From: Leucoraja erinacea
Taxonomy: Eukaryota
Direction of reading: 5' to 3'
Assembly: GCF_028641065.1 (NCBI RefSeq)
Contig: NW_026575377.1
Span: 1 to 51,379, forward strand
DNA: 51,379 bases
A program made the position numbers and the translations under genes. Positions 9,245 to 46,686 of the stretch are shown piece by piece (positions within the stretch are counted from its first letter, which is position 1; each line of letters starts with the position of its first letter). The notes under the pieces were generated by a model. That model worked only from the letters and a program-made list of their open reading frames with translations. It ran no database searches and was not told the DNA's origin.

Positions 9245-12200
9245 CTGGGGGAGAAGCAGAGAATCAGAGAGTCCCCGGGGATCGGGGGGAGACTCGGGCA
9301 CAGGCGGGCGGACAACTGAAACCTTGCCCAGGGTGACACCCAATCACGTGAGATGGACCACACAACCCTTTCACCGCGTTTCACTCCGAGGAAATGGGAG
9401 GCTCGTGGATTGCAGGAGCGGGTCGGGCGGCGGAGTGGGAATTTGNNNNNNNNNNNNNNNNNNNNNNNNNNNNNNNNNNNNNNNNNNNNNNNNNNNNNNN
9501 NNNNNNNNNNNNNNNNNNNNNNNNNNNNNNNNNNNNNNNNNNNNNNNNNNNNNNNNNNNNNNNNNNNNNNNNNNNNNNNNNNNNNNNNNNNNNNNNNNNN
9601 NNNNNNNNNNNNNNNNNNNNNNNNNNNNNNNNNNNNNNNNNNNNNNNNNNNNNNNNNNNNNNNNNNNNNNNNNNNNNNNNNNNNNNNNNNNNNNNNNNNN
9701 NNNNNNNNNNNNNNNNNNNNNNNNNNNNNNNNNNNNNNNNNNNNNNNNNNNNNNNNNNNNNNNNNNNNNNNNNNNNNNNNNNNNNNNNNNNNNNNNNNNN
9801 NNNNNNNNNNNNNNNNNNNNNNNNNNNNNNNNNNNNNNNNNNNNNNNNNNNNNNNNNNNNNNNNNNNNNNNNNNNNNNNNNNNNNNNNNNNNNNNNNNNN
9901 NNNNNNNNNNNNNNNNNNNNNNNNNNNNNNNNNNNNNNNNNNNNNNNNNNNNNNNNNNNNNNNNNNNNNNNNNNNNNNNNNNNNNNNNNNNNNNNNNNNN
10001 NNNNNNNNNNNNNNNNNNNNNNNNNNNNNNNNNNNNNNNNNNNNNNNNNNNNNNNNNNNNNNNNNNNNNNNNNNNNNNNNNNNNNNNNNNNNNNNNNNNN
10101 NNNNNNNNNNNNNNNNNNNNNNNNNNNNNNNNNNNNNNNNNNNNNNNNNNNNNNNNNNNNNNNNNNNNNNNNNNNNNNNNNNNNNNNNNNNNNNNNNNNN
10201 NNNNNNNNGGTATCAGATTATCAAGTAGCGGATTGAGATAAATTGTAACAGGAAGTATTTATAAAGGCAGGCAGGATGTCGGATGTAATATTGGAGAATT
10301 GGGGCCTAATGTGGAACTGGCACACAGCAAGTGTTGAGACCTGGGGCAGAGTCCACATCATCACACTGAATAGAGACAATTTCAAATGCCAGTTGTGATC
10401 CTTCTGTTCATCTTCTCTGCAGCAGAGGGAGAGACAGAAGGAGGGGTAGCTTCCACCACTAAAAAATGTCGGCATTGAATGGCCCTTGTGCAACACATAA
10501 TGTGTGGGGGCTCGCAGTTGTAGGGTCGCTAAAGGACAGGAGATTCATTGGTGGAAATGATCCTGGACCTGTAACCAAAAATTCATTCAACTCTGGCTAA
10601 ACCAATATATGGGCTTTCATGAGGCATTGGACATGTTCACTCATGGTGGGAGAGTGGCCACTGGTCAGCCTCACTTGTTGTATTGTGTGCAGGTTGTCAC
10701 ACTCAAGGAAGATGTTCCGGTGGCTGGGACGACGAGGCAAATGCCCAGAACGGTGCTCCGGTGGCTGGGACGACGTTATGGCGGCGGTGACCAGAGTGTC
10801 CAGGTGTCCGGAAGTGGCGGCGCTGCCCTGGCAGCAGCGGCTCGCCTGCAGTCCGTTGGTTTTTACTTTTTGTATTGTTTTTTTTCGTTTTTGTCTAGTT
10901 ATGTTTTTGGTTTTTAGGCTGTGTTTATGTGGGGAGGGGGGTGGGGGGTGAAACGGGGGCTGCTGTCACTCCCTTCGGGGGAATACGACCTTTTTGTCGT
11001 ATCCCCCTTCTTTGCGTCCGTCTACGCTGAGGCCTAGCGGAGCCGGCGACCTCGGGACTCTGGAGGCAGCTGACAGGACTCGTCCTGGGCTCGCTCCCGG
11101 CCCAGCCCGGGATGGAACGGTGCTCCCGTGAGAGCGGCATGGTGAGGGGCTGGAGTGGCCCAGCCCGAGGGAGGAACGGCACTCCCGCTGGAGTGGCCCA
11201 GCCCGAGGGAGGAACGGCACTCCCGTCGGAGTGGCCCAGCCCGAGGGAGGAACGGCACTCCCGTCGGAGTGGCCCAGCCCGAGGGAGGAACGGCACCCCC
11301 GTCGGAGTGGCCCAGCCCGAGGGAGGAACGGCACTCCCGCTGGAGTGGCCCAGCCCGAGAGAGGAACGGCACTCCCTTCGGAGTGGCCCAGCCCGAGGGA
11401 GGAACGGCACTCCCGTCGGAGTGGCCCAGCCCGAGGGAGGAACGGCACTCCCGTCGGAGTGGCCCAGCCCGAGGGAGGAACGGCACTCCCATCGGAGTGG
11501 CCCAGCCCGAGGGAGGAACGGCACTCCCGCTGGAGTGGCCCAGCCCGAGGGTGGAACGGTACTCACGTGAGGGCGATCCGGTCCGGGGGCTGGGACGGTG
11601 CTCCGGTGGCTGGGACGACGTTCTGGCGGCGGTGTCCAGAGTCCTGGGTTCAGCCGCGGGCCGGCGGCTGCGTGTGCTGGACTGGAGGTGCGGCGGCTTC
11701 GACCACCCCGGGCCGCAGTGTTTGAACCGGCCCGTTCGCGGGGTTCGGTGAGCTGCGGGACTGTTTATACCATGGCCCGGTGGGGAATCGCCTCAGCGCA
11801 GAGGGAGCAGAGGGAGAGACTGCAACCCTAAGATTTTTTGCCTCCACCACAGTGAGGAGGTGTTTGGAGGACTCACTGTGGTGGAAGTTAATTTGTGTTT
11901 ATTGTTGTTATTGTTGTATCATTGTGTGTATGACTGCAGGCACGAAATTTCGTTCAGACCGTAAGGTCTGAATGACAATAAAGGAAATTCAATTCAATTC
12001 AATTCAATTCAATTCAAGATGTGTTTGTGCTGGAGAGCGAATTGAGTATATTCATCGGGATGTTGCTTGTATTGGTGGACTTTCGTTACAGGGAGAAAAT
12101 GGGTTCAAAATCTCAATTTTCAGGTACATATGTGCAAGAGGATCTCATGGACAAGTAGCTGGGTGTTTTCCACCGAGGCAAATGCCCAGACTGAGGTCAA

Positions 12201-19598: not shown

Positions 19599-21278
19599 AC
19601 TCATTGAAACATACAGAACATTGAAAGGCTTGGATAGAGTGGATATGGAGAGGATGTTTCCACTAGTGGGAGTGTCTAGGACTAGAAGTCATAGCCTCAG
19701 AATTAAAGGACTTTCTTTTAGGAAGCCTTTCAGTGGATGATTTTAAGGCAAAAATAGATATATTCTTGATTAGTGCGGGTGTTAGAGGTTATGGGGAGAA
19801 GGCAGGAGAATGGTGTTAGGAGGGAGAGATAGACCATCTATGGTCGAATGGCCGCGTCGACGTGATGGGTCGAATGGCCTAAATCTACTTCTACCTTTTT
19901 TGACCTGATGATAAAAAACAAAGAGGAAGAAATTATATGAATTAAATGGACAGGAAAGGTGCACCACACGGGATAGATTTACTTGCAACTCTAAAAATAA
20001 TGTTTTGATAATAGATTTTACAATATCAAAGGATTTCATACAAAATACCCCAAAGTTATTAAACACTGATTTTACAAACAGGATTTAGATAATATATAAC
20101 TGGCATAAGTGTCAAGGTCTGTAACTGAATGTTAGTTCCCATTAATTCATACACTGCCTCTCACACCCACTACACCAGACACACTCACAGCATGCAAGTG
20201 TACCTGCATTTTTGTGTCAATTTAAATGTAATATGTAGCTTGGGAAACAGAGGAACAATCAAACATTTAGTGTCATGTTGTCCACTTATTCCCCAGAAGT
20301 TGTGCATTTTCTGTGTGCGCTTGGATTGGCCTAAAATTAGAAGAAATTCTCACCATTAGAAATATCACACTGTCTTTTTGATCCATCCGTTCCTGTATCT
20401 TTGTGAGTTTCTCCTGCATGGAATTTAATTTCTCTTGGATTACTTGAAGATTTGTCTTCATTATATCAAGACTCTTCGCCTCTGATTCCCTGAGATCTTT
20501 GAGTAAACGCTGTTCTTCCTCAGAGAGAATCTGCCGCTTTTTAGTGAAGTGTGATGTGATGTGGGACTGCAGACTGCGGGACTGTTCCTGTGAAGAGAAA
20601 TGTGGATATTGTTATGTTGCCACAAGGGGGTTAAATCTACACGGGATCACACAGCGAGGGACGAGACCTCACCCTAACTCCAGAAATCTTTGTTTTCTGC
20701 AATTGTTCCATTTCCAGTATCTCGGATTTTATTTTCGTGAGAGATTCCATGGAAGATTTCATCTGTGCCTGAAAATGGGTTTGTAAAAACAAAAAGTGAA
20801 ATGAAAGTGTTGTACATGAGAAAAAAACGCAGTAGAATTCATGTGATCAAAAGATGTTTGCTTTTACCTTGTAGTTTTCAACAGCTTCTTCTATCGGTAT
20901 GAAGCGGTGATCTCTGTGTTCCCGCGCGTCTCGACAAATCACACAGATCAGTTTCTTGTCAGTTTCACAAAACAGCTTCAGTTCTTCCTGATGTTTCTCG
21001 CAGTGAAGTTTACTTTCCTTCACTTTCTGATTCAGGTTTAATGTTTGAGTTTTCTCAGCCAGACTTGACAATGCCCAATTCACAATGAGGGTGCGGTCTG
21101 CAAATTCCGCTCTACATTCCGGGCAGGAAGTTCTCCCGTCTCTTTCCCAGCACTGTGTGATACAGGAGCGGCAGAAGTTGTGCCCGCACTGCAGGGACAC
21201 CGGATCGGTGAAGATATCCAGGCAGACGGGACAAATTAGTTCTTCGCGTAAACTCTCAACCTGCTGTTCGGCAGCCAT
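8712..21278 (-). CDS. TRIM E3 ligase, class IV (RING-Bbox2-coiled coil-PRY/SPRY; TRIM39/RFP/TRIM69-like), 6 coding exons, predicted 471 aa
   Basis: Exons 20868-21278 (411), 20673-20768 (96), 20354-20587 (234), 19217-19239 (23), 18999-19117 (119), 8712-9244 (533); all GT-AG, phase-consistent, total 1416 nt with no internal stop; the link to the last exon spans an assembly gap. Confidence 0.88.
9446..10208. other. Assembly gap (within predicted TRIM intron 5)
   Basis: Run of N. Confidence 1.
10745..12016 (+). mobile_element. GC-rich non-autonomous retroposon-like repeat with AATAAA and (AATTC)n tail; carries the 38-bp array
   Basis: 3' end GAATGACAATAAAGGAAATTCAATTCAATTC; internal direct repeat GGTGCTCCGGTGGCTGGGACGACGTT at ~10752 and ~11597. 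Confidence 0.5.
11151..11568. repeat. 38-bp tandem minisatellite, ~11 copies
   Basis: Unit GGAGTGGCCCAGCCCGAGGGAGGAACGGCACTCCCGTC, no spacers. Confidence 0.95.
12440..13000 (-). mobile_element. CR1 LINE 3' fragment
   Basis: [30 protein letters not shown]; [14 protein letters not shown]. Confidence 0.85.
13319..18896 (+). mobile_element. BEL/Pao LTR retrotransposon, degraded and internally deleted
   Basis: LTR homology between 13319 (TGTGGTGGCCATTTG) and 18725 (TGTAGTGGCCATTTG); PPT AAGGGGCCGG before the 3' LTR; gag-like [11 protein letters not shown] and Cys/His knuckles (~16285-16485); protease-like FLDHGS; [34 protein letters not shown]; many stops. Confidence 0.9.
18999..19117 (-). CDS. 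TRIM exon 5 (119-nt linker)
   Basis: TTTACAG|..[39 protein letters not shown]|GTAATG; phases fit both neighbours. Confidence 0.85.
19217..19239 (-). CDS. TRIM exon 4 (23-nt microexon)
   Basis: TTTCAG|GAGGAAATTAGTCGGAAGAGGAG|GTAGG; typical 23-nt TRIM exon. Confidence 0.85.
19405..19900 (+). mobile_element. CR1 LINE 3' fragment in TRIM intron 3 (contains a long poly-G)
   Basis: [14 protein letters not shown]; [12 protein letters not shown]; CR1 3'UTR. Confidence 0.8.
20354..20587 (-). CDS. TRIM exon 3 (234 nt, coiled coil)
   Basis: [14 protein letters not shown]...[19 protein letters not shown] bounded. Confidence 0.9.
20673..20768 (-). CDS. TRIM exon 2 (96 nt, coiled coil)
   Basis: TTTTCAG|[32 protein letters not shown]|GTGAG; typical 96-nt TRIM exon. 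Confidence 0.9.
20868..21278 (-). CDS. TRIM exon 1: RING (C3HC4) plus B-box2
   Basis: [44 protein letters not shown]...CPECR; [33 protein letters not shown]; donor AAG|GTAAAA. Confidence 0.95.
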
Positions 21279-21285
21279 TCTCGCC

Positions 21286-21385
21286 ACTTCCTGACTTCAC
21301 TTACGGGGAGGCGCTAAACACACCTGAGATACCACGTTTGTCCAATCAACGCGCCGCACTGTCAGGGAACGAACTCTATTGGCGA
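21286..21385 (-). promoter_or_regulatory. Putative TRIM proximal promoter (Ets GGAAGT, two CCAAT boxes)
   Basis: ACTTCC at 21286-21291, CCAAT at ~21343, ATTGG at ~21378, immediately 5' of the ATG. Confidence 0.4.
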
Positions 21386-22225: not shown

Positions 22226-22562
22226 ACAAAGCATTATGTATACTTCAATATGTCTGGAGCAGGAAAGGAGAGCATAAGAAATAAACTGCTCGAGAGACGC
22301 ATCGGGTAGAGCAACATCTGTTCGCGGGAAAGACAAGCCGCGTTTCTTAGAAAGGGCCAGGGCAAAGAGGAGACGCACTGGGTAGCTGCTGCCCCGCAGC
22401 GCAGGGTTCGGTCCTGACCTCGGGTGCTGTCTGAGTGGAGTTTGCTCGTTTACCCTTTCACCACGTGGGTTTCCTCCGGTGGCCCGGTTTAGGCAATAGG
22501 CAATAGGTGCAGGCCATTCGGCCCTTCGAGCCAGCACCGCCATTCAATGTAACTCCCGTCAG

Positions 22563-23623
22563 TCATGCTTGTTCCCGGGCACGGGGTCTTGGGTCTCCCT
22601 CCTCGTCCCCTTCTGCGAGACCTCTTTTCGCCTGTGGGCAGTCTCGAGCCCAATGGTCGAGTTCCCCACATACGAAACATCAATTTCCTTGAGGGGTTCC
22701 CCGCCCCCGTCCTCGCCCCCTCGGGTTGGTAGTATGCTGAGACCATATTATCGTCCATCCCCTCCACGTCAGCTAGATAGCCATTTTTTGTTGTTTTCTT
22801 ATTTTTATGTTTTCCTCCGCATGGAGCGCCCAATCTTTTACGCCATTCAATGCCTTTGTTTCCATCCTACCATTTAAACGATAACTGACAACCAGGTTTC
22901 TAAAATCACGCTGCCACCTTGCAAAATTGCCTCGTGGATCGGGAATGCCCTCTACGGCCCTTTATACGTCTTTATTGTTCTATGAACGGTACACATATAT
23001 CGTCCCACCCACGTTGGCATCTGGGTTTGTCATTGCAATCATAGGGTAAATTCTTCCCCATCAAGACCATTTAAAGGGGCTGAAAGGCCTACCTTTTCGG
23101 GTGACACTCTGATTTTGAAATCCTGGTTGTTGTGGAACATTCTGCGTCCCATGGACTTGCACCATCGTTGTCGGTAGTTCTGAGGCTTCACATTGTGCCA
23201 CTGGTGACGAGGCCACTCCTCCTGTATATGCAGGGGGGGGGGGGCACTTGCCAACCCAAGTGGTGGTGCTGGCGCAGCCGGGGGCGATCGGGAGAACATT
23301 TCACTGTCTCCGTTCTGTAGATACGCCGTGGTGGTTGCCTCCGTCTTTTTCTTTTTCTGTTTCTCTTTCTGTCCTTCCTCTCTCGCCCTGGCCAAGCCGT
23401 GCCAGATTCTCGCTTATTGCTACCCCAACTTCTCCTTGTCTGTCCGCTGTTGAATTGCATCTCTCGCAATGGCAGACATTAGTTTACAACAATCATCAAC
23501 GAGTAACTTACCACTAAAATCATATCTTTTTCCCCACATGTTTAAGTACTTACAATTACGCTTACTTTGTATAAACATCCATTTCTCATCACCTTCATAA
23601 CCTTTCGAGTTTGTCGAGCCCAT
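22563..23623 (-). pseudogene. gag: Retroviral gag pseudogene
   Basis: MGSTNSK myristoylation motif; PPAY late motif after a poly-C frameshift; capsid-like YPMIAMTNP..YVYRS..AVEGIPDP..SYRLNG; RGRGRG; CFVCGELDHWARDC (22638-22679); ends TGA-CTG; several stops and an apparent capsid deletion. Confidence 0.85.
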
Positions 23624-23962
23624 TCTGATTCCCTCTTCGAGACTTACGACTGTACTTTTTCCCTGCCAAGTCCAACTTGACTCTGAATTCCCAGACTTCT
23701 TACCTTTGGCGACCCTGTCGCCGCAGTAGTCCAACTACTCTCTCCAATTGTCCCCGACAATTCTGTACATCGTCACCGGTCTCCGTGGAAGGTAACAAAA
23801 TACTACTCAGCAAAGTCAAAATTACAACCCGGGGGCCCCTCCTACGGAACATTCAGGTTTATCTCGGCTGTATCGATTGGACCCCGTCACTATCTCCACC
23901 TTCCACAAATCCTTACAGTGAGCGCTCTTGGATTACTGGAAGAAGGCAACAGAGGTAGCGGG

Positions 23963-23980
23963 GCCCCACGTTGGGCGCCA
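23963..23980 (-). promoter_or_regulatory. Primer-binding site, tRNA-Lys(1,2)
   Basis: 18-nt TGGCGCCCAACGTGGGGC, 4 nt after the LTR-terminal CA. Confidence 0.9.
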
Positions 23981-23984
23981 ATTA

Positions 23985-24534
23985 TGTTAGAAATATGTTT
24001 CGCAACAGTAATAAGATATAACTTGAATGTTTAATGAGAGAATTCACACAGAGTGCAGAGGTCTGCGGAAGTCTCTCTATGCTCAAATAAATCAAAGAGT
24101 CAGAAATATCTAGTAGCTTTATTAAGTCACTATGGTGAGAGAGAGACTAGATAGTGATGTGCACAGAGCTGGCGCTATTCAGACTGTCGATACAGAGAAT
24201 TTACACATACCTTTATACTCATAAACAGCCGTAAGCCACATGGTAAGTCATTTTCCATAACATGAATAAAGGAACACAGTTTACAAGAAAAATAATGAAG
24301 TACCTTAGTTAGGTTAGGGAGGCAAGGGAGGAGTAGGGAGGCAGACACCTGCCAAAGCAACATAAGAATGTATGTTTGATAACACACAGACTACAGGATG
24401 ATAGCATGAGAATGGAATATCACAAGGACGAGAACGGCTCTTATCCATGTTCTCTCAGCTGGTGCAAGGCCGGTCTGTAACGGCACTTATCCGTTCTGTC
24501 GGTTGACTGCAAAAAGACTGCAAAAATGCTAACA
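23985..24534 (-). repeat. Retroviral 5' LTR (550 bp)
   Basis: 6-bp inverted termini; minus-strand TATAAA at ~24212-24217, AATAAA at 24118-24123, ATTAAA at ~24030-24035. Confidence 0.75.
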
Positions 24535-25384
24535 TCTTTAAAGCATTTTCATATGTACAGTCCACGATAGCTATTGGAATGAGTTTTTCTATAATGTATG
24601 CTGTCATCATGTTCGACAGTTAGGTGGAAGGGCCTGATCCTGTTCTATCCTCCTCTGGGTTATGTGTTTTATAGGGAATGGTGGTACCAAGAGAATATTG
24701 AGCTAAAGAGGATCTTCAATGTGAAGGTCTACGGACACCTGTATTTGGAGAAAATCCTTAAAATGTATTCGGTTAGTGATCGTGGGTTGTGCTCAATGTA
24801 TTGTTAATCAGAATCAGCAACATGTGTGCTCTTGCAAATCGCATCATTGGCCCACTGGGATTGCAGGCGGCCACCAAGGTCGATTTAAATCAGGTAGCTT
24901 CTATTTCGCAGACAGATGTGATAGAAATTGATGATGTTTGAATATTCAGTATGAAACAAATGATTCGTAAATGATATTACTTTTCGCATAGACACTGTGT
25001 TGCAGTAATTCAGTGAGCCAGGAGCATCCCTGGGGAACATAAATATGCGACATTTCGGCTCAAGATTCTAACTCATACTTGTTGCAGTGCGTGGGCGGGG
25101 GGCGAGGAGCTAGGAGAGACATGGGCGGGAGGGGGGGGGGAGGAGAGCTAGGAGAGACGCTGGCCGGGGGCGAGGATCTGTGAGAGAGGTGGGGGGGGGG
25201 GGGTTGCGCGGAGAGCTGGGAGAGACGTGGGGCTCGCCAAAGCCGGGCAAGTGGCAGATGTATGCAGGTTCGCGGTGGTTTTGATCGGCGGATGATTGAA
25301 CAAAGGGCAATGATGAAAAAAGATAAGGAAAGATGATCATTTGCAGATCTTGCCTCGAGTAATAGACATATGTGTTGCATTACG

Positions 25385-28984: not shown

Positions 28985-31900
28985 TCATTTAATGCAGTTG
29001 GTTACTGTGGCAACAGGAACCATGTGCCATTTGATCACGTGTTTCAGTTCCTCTCTGAATTTTCTCTGAGATACAGCATAAATAAAGGTGTTCGTGGAAG
29101 AACTCAAAGACTTCAGCATGTACCCGGATAACTCAGCAATGTTGAAGGGGTCATTGCAATTTCCATCCAAAAATAGCGTGTCAGTAAATTGCACACATAT
29201 GTAACATATCAAATTAACCATCCACAAGAGAATAAAGCTGCCAGAAATGGCGAGCAGCAACACGATGGATTTTCTGCGGTTCTCTATCTCTGGGTCAGTG
29301 TGCTTCACAGTACTGTTGTTTCCACGTAGTCCGCTCCTCACTCGGTTCGCCAATATAATGTGTCTGATGGTCAGTGAATTAAACAGCAAGATCAACAAAT
29401 AGGGAGCAAACGGAGTCAAGATCGTTTCCAGCCACAGAAATGCGGCCCAAATGGGTAATGTGTAGAAGCTTGATTTTACATAGCACGCCCACTCAACGCC
29501 ATTAACTACCTCCCGTGGTTCGTATATGAAATAGTACGGAATGTTTTCCACGATACTTGTACACAATACCACCGCTACCACGATAGTCACATTCTTTTCA
29601 GTACAATGTTTTGTTCGTAGCATTTGATGGCAAATCGCAATAAATCGGTCGAAATAAAAGCCACAGTGAGTCACACTGAACAGTCCATGGAAATAAAAAT
29701 CGTGGTTACGGTGGTGAGATTGAAGAAGGAATGTGTAAAATATGCAATAATAATCTGATATAAAATGACAACAAATGTAATGACCATCAGGTCAGCGACG
29801 GCCATTCCCAGCAGGTAACGAGAGATGCATTTGGAGAGACCGCACTTTTCTCGGGACAAGATCATGATGGCCAACAAATTTACTGCATAAAACAGATGTA
29901 TATTAATAATGATATTCGATATGAGAAGCCGAATAGTGATGTTTCATTATCTGGATTAGAATTAATTGCACAATATTTATCTGATAGTTTTAGTGGGAAA
30001 TCGGTTGCAATTGTGACAATTCGGTCAACTCCGACTAGTGGGTCTGGTCTTTGCAGCGCTGAAGTCAGAATGCAGCTGTAGATCAGATACGTATCTGCTA
30101 CAGAGCCATGAACCAAGTACTGAGCGGGAGGTTGGTCTCGCTGAATTGTGCTTTATACGAAGCATGACTGGCTTATATAACGCGGCTCCATTCATTGGCA
30201 AAGTGGCCGCTCACCCCGGTTGGAGGTGTCTTTAAAGTAAATAATTTTGTTGGAGGTGACTTTAAAGTAAATAATTTTATTGTATTGTTTCTTCATTCCA
30301 AAGATTTGAAATAATGTTTCATTTGGATCTAACTGGGAGCAATACATTAATTCATTCTTGTTTTTTTTTTAATCGTTTACTTTGATTGTTTAAAATATTG
30401 GAATTATTCCCGGTTATGGATTCCCGTACATACCGCTGACAGGAAGGAATTGCCTAAAGCTCTGGTGACTGTTTTAAGTAGGAACTCATGATTCATTATT
30501 TGGGATGCTGTCATGGCCAGTGCAAAACTCCACTTTAAACGACTAACGCCAGAGTGATGTCTAGAGCTCGACTCGACTCACGTCGGCAGAAAGAACGAGT
30601 AAAAATGCAGACAGGCAGCTGTACGGTTGCGGGTTATGGGCAATGTTGCCAAACCAAGTATCATCCTTCTTATTATTACTTACCATTGACTCTACGTCCG
30701 CATCAAGTAGATCATTTGCAATTTTGTCTCCAGAGAGTTATTTATATTTAAAATATTGTTTACAAATAGTACAGTGCACCAGCAGGTCGTTCGCTCCTCA
30801 ATGTCTGTATACGTTCAGAAAATCTCCTCTGCCAGTTCGAGATCCAGATCCCTCCATTCCCCGCCTAACCATCGGGGGCAGATTATTATCTCAACGGGGT
30901 TAGGTTAGGTAAGGGGGAGGTGCAGCGAGACCTGGGTGTCCTTGTACACTACCTTGTAGTGGGGAAACTACTAGAGTCAGTTATTAAAGATGGGATAGCA
31001 GCACATTTGGAAAGTGGTGAAATCATTGGACAAAGTCAGCATGGATTTACGAAAGGTAAATCATGTCTGACGAATCTTCTAGAATTTTTCGAGGATGTAA
31101 CTAGTAGCGTGGATAGGGGAGAACCAGTGGATGTGGTGTATCTGGACTTCCAGAAGGCTTTCGACAAGGTCCCACATAAGAGATTAGTATACAAACTTAA
31201 AGTACACGGCATTGGGGGTTCAGTATTGATGTGGATAGAGAACTGTCTGGCAAACAGGAAGCAAAGAGTAGGAGTAAACGGGTCCTTTTCACAATGGCAG
31301 GCAGTGACTAGTGGGGTAGCGCAAGGCTCAGTGCTGGGACCCCAGCTATTTACAATATATATTATTGATCTGGATGAGGGAATTGAAGGCAATATCTCCA
31401 AGTTTGCGGATGGCACTAAGCTGGGGGGCAGTGTTAGCTGTGAGGAGGATGCTAGGAGACTGCAAGGTGACTTGGATAGGCTGGGTGAGTGGGCAAATGT
31501 TTGGCAGATGCAGTATAATGTGGATAAATGTAAGGTTATCCATTTTGGTGGCAAAAACAGGAAAGAAGACTAAATGGTGGCCGACTAGGAAAAGGGGAGA
31601 TGCAGCGAGACCTGGGTGTCATTGTACACCAGTCGTTGAAAGTAGGCATGCAGGTGCAGCAGGCAGTGAAGAAAGCGAATACTATGTTAGCTTTCATAGC
31701 AAAAGGATTTGAGTATAGGAGCAGGGAGGTTCTACTGCAGTTGTACAGGGTCTTGGTGAGACCACATCTGGAGTATTGCGTACAGTTTTCGTCTCCAAAT
31801 CTGAGGAAGGACATTATTGCCATAGAGGGAGTGCAGAGAAGGTTCACCAGACTGATTCCTGGGATGTCAGGACTGTCTTATGAAGAAAGACTGGATAGAC

Positions 31901-45815: not shown

Positions 45816-45913
45816 GGAGAGTGGCTGAGTGCTGGGGACATGGGAGGGTGGGACCAGCAAAGGGAGGAGGGGGACAGTGACTAGGGGGACAACGCAAGGC
45901 TCGGTGAAGGGAG

Positions 45914-46500
45914 GCAGTGACTAGTGGGGGAACCGAAAAGCTCGGTGCTGGGACCAGCAGTGACTAGTGGGAACCGCAAGGCTCGGTGCTGGGACCAACA
46001 GTGACTAGTGGGGAACCGCAAGGCTCAGTGCTGGGACCAGCAGTGACTAGTGGGGAACCGCAAAGCTCAGTGCTGGGACCAGCAGTGACTAGTGGGAACC
46101 GCAAGGCTCGGTGCTGGGACCAACAGTGACTAGTGGGAAACCGCAAGGCTCAGTGCTGGGACCAGCAGTGACTAGTGGGGAACCGCAAGGCTCGGTGCTG
46201 GGACCAGCAGTGACTAGTGGGGAACCGCAAGGCTCGGTGCTGGGACCAGCAGTGACTAGTGGGGAACCGCAAGGCTCGGTGCTGGGACCAGCAGTGACTA
46301 GTGGGGAACCGCAAGGCTCGGTGCTGGGACCAGCAGTGACTAGTGGGGAACCGCAAGGCTCGGTGCTGGGACCAGCAGTGACTAGTGGGGAACCGCAAGG
46401 CTCGGTGCTGGGACCAGCAGTGACTAGTGGGGAACCGCAAGGCTCGGTGCTGGGACCAGCAGTGACTAGTGGGGAACCGCAAGGCTCGGTGCTGGGACCC
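45914..46500 (+). repeat. 42-bp tandem repeat (~14 copies) of a CR1 RT motif
   Basis: Unit GCAGTGACTAGTGGGGAACCGCAAGGCTCGGTGCTGGGACCA encodes AVTSGEPQGSVLGP; the last unit runs into QLFIIYINDLD. Confidence 0.95.
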
Positions 46501-46686
46501 CAGCTTTTTATAATATACATCAATGATTTGGATGATGGGATTCAAAGTAACATTAGCAACATTGCAGATGACACAAAGCTGGGTGGCAGTGTGAAATGTG
46601 AGGAGGATGCTATGAGGATGCGAGGTGACTTGGACAGGTTGGGGGAGTGGGCAGAAACATGGCAGATGAAGTTTAGTGGGGATATA

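What the first reader, a model, noticed from the sequence alone, without database searches (positions are those of the whole stretch)
22551..24534. Probably uncatalogued fish-type endogenous retrovirus with a tRNA-Lys PBS
Missed by the ORF track because of stops and a frameshift. It has a 550-bp LTR, a PBS TGGCGCCCAACGTGGGGC, and a gag with MGxxxS myristoylation signal, PPAY late domain, capsid-like segment, RG repeats and one CCHC knuckle, ending in TGA-CTG (a UGA-CUR read-through context). The Lys1,2 PBS is known from foamy and betaretroviruses, but this Gag architecture is orthoretroviral (gamma/epsilon-like). Chondrichthyan ERVs are poorly sampled.
Basis: partly seen in the sequence, partly recalled or inferred. 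Interest (0 to 1): 0.7.

Follow-up and report, generated by a model that had tools for sequence, protein, structure and literature searches.

The report
Decayed fish-type retrovirus with UGA readthrough
This is the broken front third of an old retrovirus insertion; its relatives in the same genome carry all the usual retrovirus genes and likely made their enzymes by reading through a UGA stop codon, as related fish retroviruses are predicted to do, so it is a new member of a known kind.

Summary
The minus strand holds one LTR (24594-23985, 610 bp, not 550), a tRNA-Lys(CUU) primer site, and a decayed gag ending TGA-CTG. Homology stops about 13 bp later at a LINE tail; pol, env and the 3' LTR are absent from the window. 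Relatives in the same genome (three subfamilies, all broken) show LTR-gag-pro-pol-env-LTR, 5-bp target duplications, an RT nearest MLV among solved structures and nested among teleost ERV RTs, an MLV-like capsid fold and a gamma-type Env. It is therefore a class I, epsilon-like ERV, not Gypsy, foamy or beta. Pro follows the gag stop in frame in 6 copies; the junction is TGA-CTG-A in 22 of 24 located copies and TGA-CTA-G in a third subfamily. UGA junctions are already described for SSSV, ZFERV and a toad ERV; only the alphavirus-like UGA-CUR context is not listed for retroviruses in the review read. The window copy belongs to a capsid-deleted lineage (5 independent insertions) and gave no LTR or gag RNA reads in 4 runs. 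Dfam/Repbase could not be checked. The scan holds no look-alike elsewhere. Verdict: new member of a known kind.

The parts
23985..24594 (-). 5' LTR, 610 bp (begins TT instead of TG, ends CTAACA); TATAAA at 24217-24212, AATAAA at 24123-24118
   Evidence: Alignment with LTRs of relatives; empty paralogous sites diverge at 24595/24594; 91% to the L031 5' LTR, 71% to the subfamily-B LTR of L050; motifs
23963..23980 (-). Primer binding site for tRNA-Lys(CUU), after a 4-nt spacer TAAT (23984-23981)
   Evidence: 16 places in the genome carry the complementary tRNA 3' end; 5 of 5 fetched are tRNA-Lys(ctt) by ARAGORN
23624..23962 (-). Leader, about 340 nt, stops in all three frames, no accessory ORF
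22563..23623 (-). Decayed gag: MGSTNS start, matrix, PPAY (23237), N-terminal half of capsid, RG run, one CCHC (22679-22638), stop TGA (22565-22563)
   Evidence: tblastn to the Gag ORF of L048 38-58%; 92.5% DNA identity to L031 over 1414 aligned bases
22872..22873 (-). Joint of a 386-bp capsid deletion shared, at the same breakpoints, with L031, L032, L033 and L036
   Evidence: 5' flanks of these copies are unrelated
22550..22565 (-). gag/pro junction TGA-CTG-ACG and the first four codons of pro; proviral homology ends at 22550 (plus or minus 2)
22505..22549 (-). 3' tail of a high-copy LINE-type repeat (CR1 label recalled) that abuts the truncated provirus; not viral
   Evidence: 7 other matches in the window, some beside LINE RT frames; very high depth in all DNA runs
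24595..25080 (-). Host 5' flank, segmentally duplicated; paralogues are empty sites
   Evidence: LTR/flank joint bridged by contigs of runs X1 and X4

Best explanation
The stretch is the truncated, dead 5' third (LTR, tRNA-Lys primer site, decayed gag) of a class I, epsilon-like endogenous retrovirus whose relatives in the same genome carry gag, pro, pol and env, and which likely made its enzymes by read-through of an in-frame UGA. How the family worked: transcription from the LTR; reverse transcription primed by host tRNA-Lys(CUU) (complementarity shown); a Gag predicted to be myristoylated, budding through a PPxY late domain and packaging RNA with one zinc knuckle (motifs shown, function inferred from gammaretroviruses); Gag-Pro-Pol made by suppression of UGA in a CUG/CUA context (frame shown, read-through inferred); a gamma-type Env, so the ancestor was likely infectious; integration with a 5-bp duplication (shown in 5 of 7 two-LTR copies). 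How this copy arose: it descends from a lineage that had already lost 386 bp of capsid, so it was likely copied in trans by helper proviruses. It inserted in one unit of a duplicated TRIM/GPCR region before two species split. It later decayed and lost everything past the gag stop, likely by a deletion that joined it to a LINE tail.
For: Gene order and domains in relatives: RVP, RT, RNase H, rve, TLV_coat. RT of L044 against PDB: MLV E 3.9e-41, foamy 6.5e-25, HIV-2 7.4e-24. RT relatives are 50-72% identical fish ERV proteins; 7 RT rows of this family plus unnamed P0005 form one clade (SH-aLRT 98) inside teleost ERV clades (quick tree, 108 rows). The predicted capsid (pLDDT 84) matches MLV capsid best in PDB (E 4.4e-5) and WEHV2, RMERV and WDSV Gag at ranks 2-4 of the viral library. 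The conserved Q-x3-E-x7-R motif fits the major homology region (recalled). Env has CXXC, RVKR, the immunosuppressive motif and CX6CC; its TM is 72-78% identical to named shark proteins. Junction: located in 24 of 35 sequences; TGA-CTG-A in 22, TGG-CTG in 1, TGA-ATG in 1. The protease DSG motif is in frame without a stop in L045, L047, L050, L082 and L085 (L048 was flagged but dropped, its DSG lies in inserted DNA) and in L079 behind TGA-CTA-G. LTR pairs: K2P 0.016-0.040 in 6 and 0.097 in 1. The capsid deletion is shared by 5 copies with unrelated flanks. The LTR/flank joint is bridged in run X1 (organism A, 0 differences in 363 bases) and X4 (organism B, 9 in 353). Depth is zero on LTR and gag in 4 RNA runs of 2 studies, 5-6% of each read; only trace depth lies on leader/PBS in one run.
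Against: Read-through is inferred, not measured; PMC13517186 says it is not experimentally verified in epsilonretroviruses either. No subfamily-A copy has protease open from the stop to DSG (0 of the 9 A-type rows), although the first 35-45 codons are in frame in L031 and L035. No clear downstream RNA structure: z from +0.07 to -2.18 in 6 folds. No tree with named WDSV, SSSV, ZFERV or SnRV sequences could be built; the best RT fold match (Q2VF30, 43%) came without a name, and my reading of it as SSSV is recalled. The tree is a quick one without bootstrap. The top Gag fold match is annotated as a turtle herpesvirus protein, unexplained. The 3' break at 22550 is not bridged by any listed contig and the paralogous flank does not resume behind it, so an assembly join cannot be excluded.
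Confidence: 0.9

Rival explanations
1. The family is already catalogued (a Dfam/Repbase ERV1 family, or among ERVs listed in vertebrate-wide or chondrichthyan screens), so only this locus is new.
For: Close env relatives are in public shark annotations as uncharacterized or syncytin-like proteins. A 2026 preprint screened 36 chondrichthyan genomes for Env and found epsilon-like Pol beside catshark candidates (10.64898/2026.05.06.723177; abstract, introduction and passages). PMC4422223 reports two epsilon-like lineages in elephant shark (first part of text).
Against: The Gag search found 4 relatives at 25-38%. Paper searches listed no description of this family. The scan's own index has no look-alike.
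Confidence: 0.35
2. The 3' truncation is an assembly artefact and the real locus is a longer provirus.
For: The window is a whole 51-kb contig in a duplicated region; no listed contig bridges 22550; the host flank seen in empty paralogues does not resume.
Against: The break falls on a LINE tail, a usual partner of deletions (inference). Pieces on both sides of the break are present at 98-100% identity in runs X1, X3 and X4. Only the longest pieces were listed.
Confidence: 0.12
3. It is a foamy-like or betaretroviral element, as the Lys primer might suggest, or a Gypsy retrotransposon.
For: Most fish foamy-like ERVs use tRNA-Lys (PMC5210030 passages); the Gag has RG repeats.
Against: A Cys-His box is present (foamy Gag lacks it) and single; pro is in frame with gag; RT is far closer to MLV than to foamy or class II RTs; the capsid is MLV-like; Env is gamma-type.
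Confidence: 0.02
4. The copy is kept for a host role, for example as an LTR promoter for the neighbouring TRIM gene or as a Gag-based restriction factor.
For: The LTR points toward a TRIM RING-B-box exon 2.7 kb downstream on the same strand (21296-20850); the insertion is shared by two species labels.
Against: gag is broken by many stops and indels; no RNA reads on the LTR, gag or the TRIM-side bin 22244-22354 in 4 runs.
Confidence: 0.04

Closest known systems
[quoted passage not shown]
   Same: Simple gag-pro-pol-env layout; gag and pol in one frame with a UGA between them (UGACGA and UGAAGA; PMC13517186; PMC3382231 figure legend); RT nests among teleost ERVs. A Lys primer for ZFERV is recalled and was not confirmed: the paper is not held.
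   Different: Junction context UGA-CUG-A / UGA-CUA-G; all copies seen are broken, whereas ZFERV has intact frames; LTR 390-730 bp; SSSV's Met primer is recalled. Direct sequence comparison with either was not possible.
Epsilonretrovirus proper (WDSV, WEHV1/2)
   Same: Gag fold matches WEHV2 and WDSV; in-frame gag/pro junction.
   Different: No room for accessory ORFs in leader or between env and 3' LTR; UGA rather than the UAG type; His primer of WDSV recalled.
Gammaretrovirus (MLV)
   Same: Nearest solved RT and capsid; MGxxxS, PPxY, one CCHC, gamma-type Env.
   Different: UGA-CUR instead of UAG-G with pseudoknot; Lys instead of Pro primer and 5-bp instead of 4-bp duplication (MLV values recalled); capsid only 13-14% identical.
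Elephant shark CmiERV lineages II/III and shark syncytin-like Env loci
   Same: Epsilon-like ERVs of cartilaginous fish with LTR divergence 0.024-0.033, like 0.016-0.040 here; TM 72-78% identical to Chiloscyllium, Mustelus, Heterodontus and Scyliorhinus proteins.
   Different: Relationship to CmiERV not tested (its sequences are in a supplement that I did not open); the SU N-terminal domain resembles unnamed P0305/P0333 and a lumpfish Env rather than these shark Envs.

Membership tests
Retroviridae ERV (versus Ty3/Gypsy) | Two LTRs with TG...CA ends, target duplication, PBS and polypurine tract | tested here: met
   7 two-LTR copies, exact 5-bp duplication in 5; purine tract before 3' LTRs; the window copy has one LTR only
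Retroviridae ERV (versus Ty3/Gypsy) | gag-pro-pol-env order with retroviral env | tested here: met
   env remnants in L033, L035, L039, L072 and most subfamily-B copies
Class I (gamma/epsilon-related) ERV | RT closer to gamma/epsilon than to class II or III | tested here: met
   PDB ranking MLV 3.9e-41 versus foamy 6.5e-25 and HIV-2 7.4e-24
Class I (gamma/epsilon-related) ERV | Single CCHC, myristoylation signal, PPxY, MHR-bearing capsid | tested here: met
   the MHR is deleted in the window copy
Class I (gamma/epsilon-related) ERV | pro-pol in frame with gag behind one stop codon | tested here: met
   6 copies open from stop to DSG
Class I (gamma/epsilon-related) ERV | Gamma-type Env (CXXC, furin site, ISD, CX6CC) | tested here: met
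ZFERV/SSSV clade | UGA at the gag/pro junction | tested here: met
   23 of 24 located junctions plus L079; literature
ZFERV/SSSV clade | Monophyly with ZFERV and SSSV in an RT tree | tested here: inconclusive
   No named reference sequences were available; nested among unnamed teleost ERV RTs; top fold match unnamed
Epsilonretrovirus (WDSV/WEHV) | Accessory ORFs outside gag-pol-env | tested here: not met
   340-nt leader closed in all frames; env ends about 140 nt before the 3' LTR in L050
Spumaretrovirinae / fish foamy-like ERV | Gag without Cys-His box, foamy-type RT | tested here: not met
   definition from PMC5210030
Betaretrovirus | Two CCHC boxes, frameshifted pro and pol, class II RT | tested here: not met
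   definition partly recalled
Named Dfam/Repbase family | High DNA identity to a library model | not testable with these tools
   No such library on hand

The most novel reading that the evidence does not exclude
This family is a retrovirus lineage that expresses its enzymes with the alphavirus/cellular type II signal (UGA-CUG, and the strong UGA-CUAG motif in one subfamily) without a pseudoknot, a context not listed for any retrovirus. It reached cartilaginous fish from within the teleost ERV radiation and carries an immunoglobulin-like receptor-binding domain in Env.
Probability: 0.3. Interest if true: 0.5.

Novelty: new member of a known kind. Interest (0 to 1): 0.3.

Why it matters
It adds a well-defined, multi-subfamily class I ERV to a thinly described host group, with primer, target duplication, LTR ages and junction signal mapped. 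Read-through in fish and epsilon-like retroviruses has not been measured. The natural junction series found here (UGA-CUG-A, UGA-CUA-G, and decayed UGA-AUG and UGG-CUG variants) gives a ready short-cassette test of whether these viruses rely on stop context alone. The repeated spread of internally deleted lineages is a clean record of copying in trans. The window copy itself is a dead fragment with no sign of a function.

Tried and rejected
tblastn for pro, pol and env in the window: none. ARAGORN on the window: 0 tRNA genes. Viral-contig scan with integrase: no relative. Cluster look-up of 10 hits named no known virus. No RNA holder listed. Search for a stimulatory stem-loop after the stop: not significant; a G-rich/C-rich stem recurs in subfamilies A and B but does not beat shuffles clearly. 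A first alignment test for the capsid deletion was uninformative because gaps were too cheap (second part) and was redone with blastn. A codon-pattern test for RT presence missed RT in L050 and was not used. A CR1-like tail lies about 550 bp past the insertion point in 5 of 6 empty paralogues, suggesting it might be the window's tail; the sequence after it differs from the window, so this was not accepted. An Ig fold for the Env N-terminus: Pfam gives nothing for this family's SU or P0305, PDB only E 0.053; the Atlas gave no result. The careful RT tree did not finish; the quick tree is used. Primary papers on ZFERV, SSSV, the toad ERV and teleost retroviruses were not held. Searches for a Lys primer in ZFERV or Xen1 (passages) did not confirm it. 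Supplements of the shark papers were not seen and may list these loci.

Full report
Observation. The element lies on the minus strand. Alignment with relatives puts the LTR at 24594-23985, 610 bp. Paralogous empty sites of the duplicated host flank part from the window exactly there. A 4-nt spacer and the PBS follow (23980-23963). The PBS is complementary to host tRNA-Lys(CUU): 16 genomic places carry the matching tRNA end and 5 of 5 checked are tRNA-Lys(ctt). Gag starts MGSTNS at 23623 and has PPAY, an RG run, one CCHC (Pfam E 3.7e-7) and TGA-CTG at 22565. It carries six internal stops in the two main frames and several indels. Homology ends at 22550, where a LINE tail begins. Nothing of pol or env is in the window.

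Relatives. A DNA search of the own genome gave 108 matches (a lower bound). I fetched 34 ten-kb or shorter stretches around them, not all matches. They fall into subfamily A (window-type LTR or related), B (390-bp LTR) and C (L073, L075, L077, L079 and others, about 50% Gag identity). Seven stretches hold both LTRs; five have exact 5-bp target duplications, one a 4-bp match, one none. LTR divergence is 0.016-0.040 in six and 0.097 in one. With the shark rate assumed in PMC4422223 (2.2e-10 per site per year) the six give about 35-90 million years; a tenfold faster rate gives 4-9, so the age is loose. Gene order is gag-pro-RT-RNase H-integrase-env. Every copy examined is broken by stops, frameshifts, insertions or deletions.

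Classification. The RT of L044 matches MLV far better than foamy or lentiviral RT among solved structures. Its nearest database relatives are fish ERV polymerases at 50-72%. In a quick tree of 108 RT rows (L031 and L032 and short hits left out for length) the family forms one clade with unnamed P0005, inside teleost ERV groups. The best RT fold match in the viral library was unnamed. The predicted capsid of L048 matches MLV capsid in PDB and WEHV2, RMERV and WDSV Gag in the viral library, behind one protein annotated as herpesviral. Env has all gamma-type motifs. Its TM is 72-78% identical to named shark proteins and 63-75% to bird, teleost, frog and primate Envs near the top of the list, a widespread TM lineage. 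Gypsy, foamy and beta readings fail. True epsilonretrovirus membership fails for lack of accessory genes. The filing is class I, epsilon-like, probably near ZFERV/SSSV.

The junction. Of 35 sequences, 24 gave a junction with two natural probes: 22 TGA-CTG-A, one TGG-CTG, one TGA-ATG. The sequence on either side differs between A and B, the stop and next codon do not. L079 (subfamily C) reads TGA-CTA-G. Protease is open in frame to its DSG motif in six copies; none of them is of subfamily A, where only the first codons remain in frame. So Gag-Pro-Pol was likely made by UGA suppression. This is not new in kind: SSSV, ZFERV and a toad ERV have UGAAGA, UGACGA and UGAAGU, and read-through there is unverified (PMC13517186, passages). 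UGACUA is the type II motif of alphaviruses, UGACUAG supports basal read-through in human genes, and UGACUG is listed for one alphavirus. In these passages no retrovirus has UGA-CUR. Against over-reading: the codon after the stop is Leu in all three subfamilies, so protein constraint could explain part of it; only two independent codon states were seen; folding showed no significant structure.

History of this copy. The window, L031, L032, L033 and L036 lack the same 386 bp of capsid at the same breakpoints yet have unrelated 5' flanks. A capsid-defective template was therefore integrated at least five times, most simply with proteins from helper proviruses (inference). Its matrix region is closer to subfamily B (84-89%) than to L035 (79%), while its capsid/nucleocapsid is closer to L037 (84-90%) than B is (about 72%), a sign of recombination. 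The LTR/flank joint is bridged by contigs in two species labels, so the insertion is real and predates their split. The 3' break is not bridged in the listed pieces. Four RNA runs (two studies, 5-6% of each read) show no reads on LTR or gag; tissues are unknown, so this is limited evidence of silence.

Literature seen. PMC13517186, PMC8672886, PMC4977317, PMC10699275, PMC8278194, PMC3382231, PMC2684134, PMC10968565, PMC6114882, PMC5210030, PMC4131045: passages. PMC4422223: first of two parts. bioRxiv 10.64898/2026.05.06.723177: first of four parts and passages; its supplements are closed and may list env loci of this family. Searches for a description of this family listed none. The scan's index gave no look-alike by sequence, nothing by place, and by words one note on a different, foamy-like family in another genome, not used.

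Verdict. A real, correctly spotted, dead fragment of a class I epsilon-like ERV: new member of a known kind, interest 0.3. The UGA-CUR junction series is the one feature worth a bench test.

Noticed in passing
window 20850-21296 (-): Exon of a TRIM gene (RING and B-box), 1.3 kb past the truncated provirus, same strand; the region is segmentally duplicated on at least 8 other contigs.
   Followed up: partly
window 28988-29943 (-): Rhodopsin-family 7TM receptor gene (Pfam 7tm_1), apparently split by a frameshift near 29790.
   Followed up: no
L043, L045, L046, L047, L049, L081, L082, L084, L085: Subfamily-B copies that share a jump from protease residue about 143 to integrase residue about 11, lacking RT and RNase H: a second deleted lineage copied in trans.
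   Followed up: partly
L044:7213-7581, L035:7127-7450, P0305, P0334: The Env N-terminal domain ends in an Ig-like strand motif. A related unnamed Env (P0334) has a Pfam V-set domain above cut-off (E 5.6e-7), but this family's own domain scores only E 0.053 to an IL-1RAcP Ig domain through P0305.
   Followed up: partly
L040 (G000:C2:54363000-54372999): A different class I ERV (RT 40%, TM 31% to this family) with TGA-TGG junction and pro in frame, lying between two window-type LTR pieces 5.4 kb apart.
   Followed up: partly
window 23981-23984 and 3' LTR starts of L031, L044, L050: A 4-nt spacer separates LTR and PBS in nearly all copies, and AAAA precedes the 3' LTR; longer than the 2 nt recalled for MLV.
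   Followed up: no
P0005 and P0305: Nearest RT (72%) and TM (79%) relatives are unnamed Logan proteins of 1029 and 623 aa whose longest contig has the same length (8428), perhaps one related virus or young ERV.
   Followed up: no
BFVD entry V5NX06: A protein annotated as ICP4c of chelonid alphaherpesvirus 5 is the top fold match of this Gag (E 1.3e-9), suggesting a retroviral capsid-like part or a mis-assigned sequence.
   Followed up: no
window 11073-11642 and 45885-46583: Tandem arrays of 38-bp and 42-bp units.
   Followed up: no
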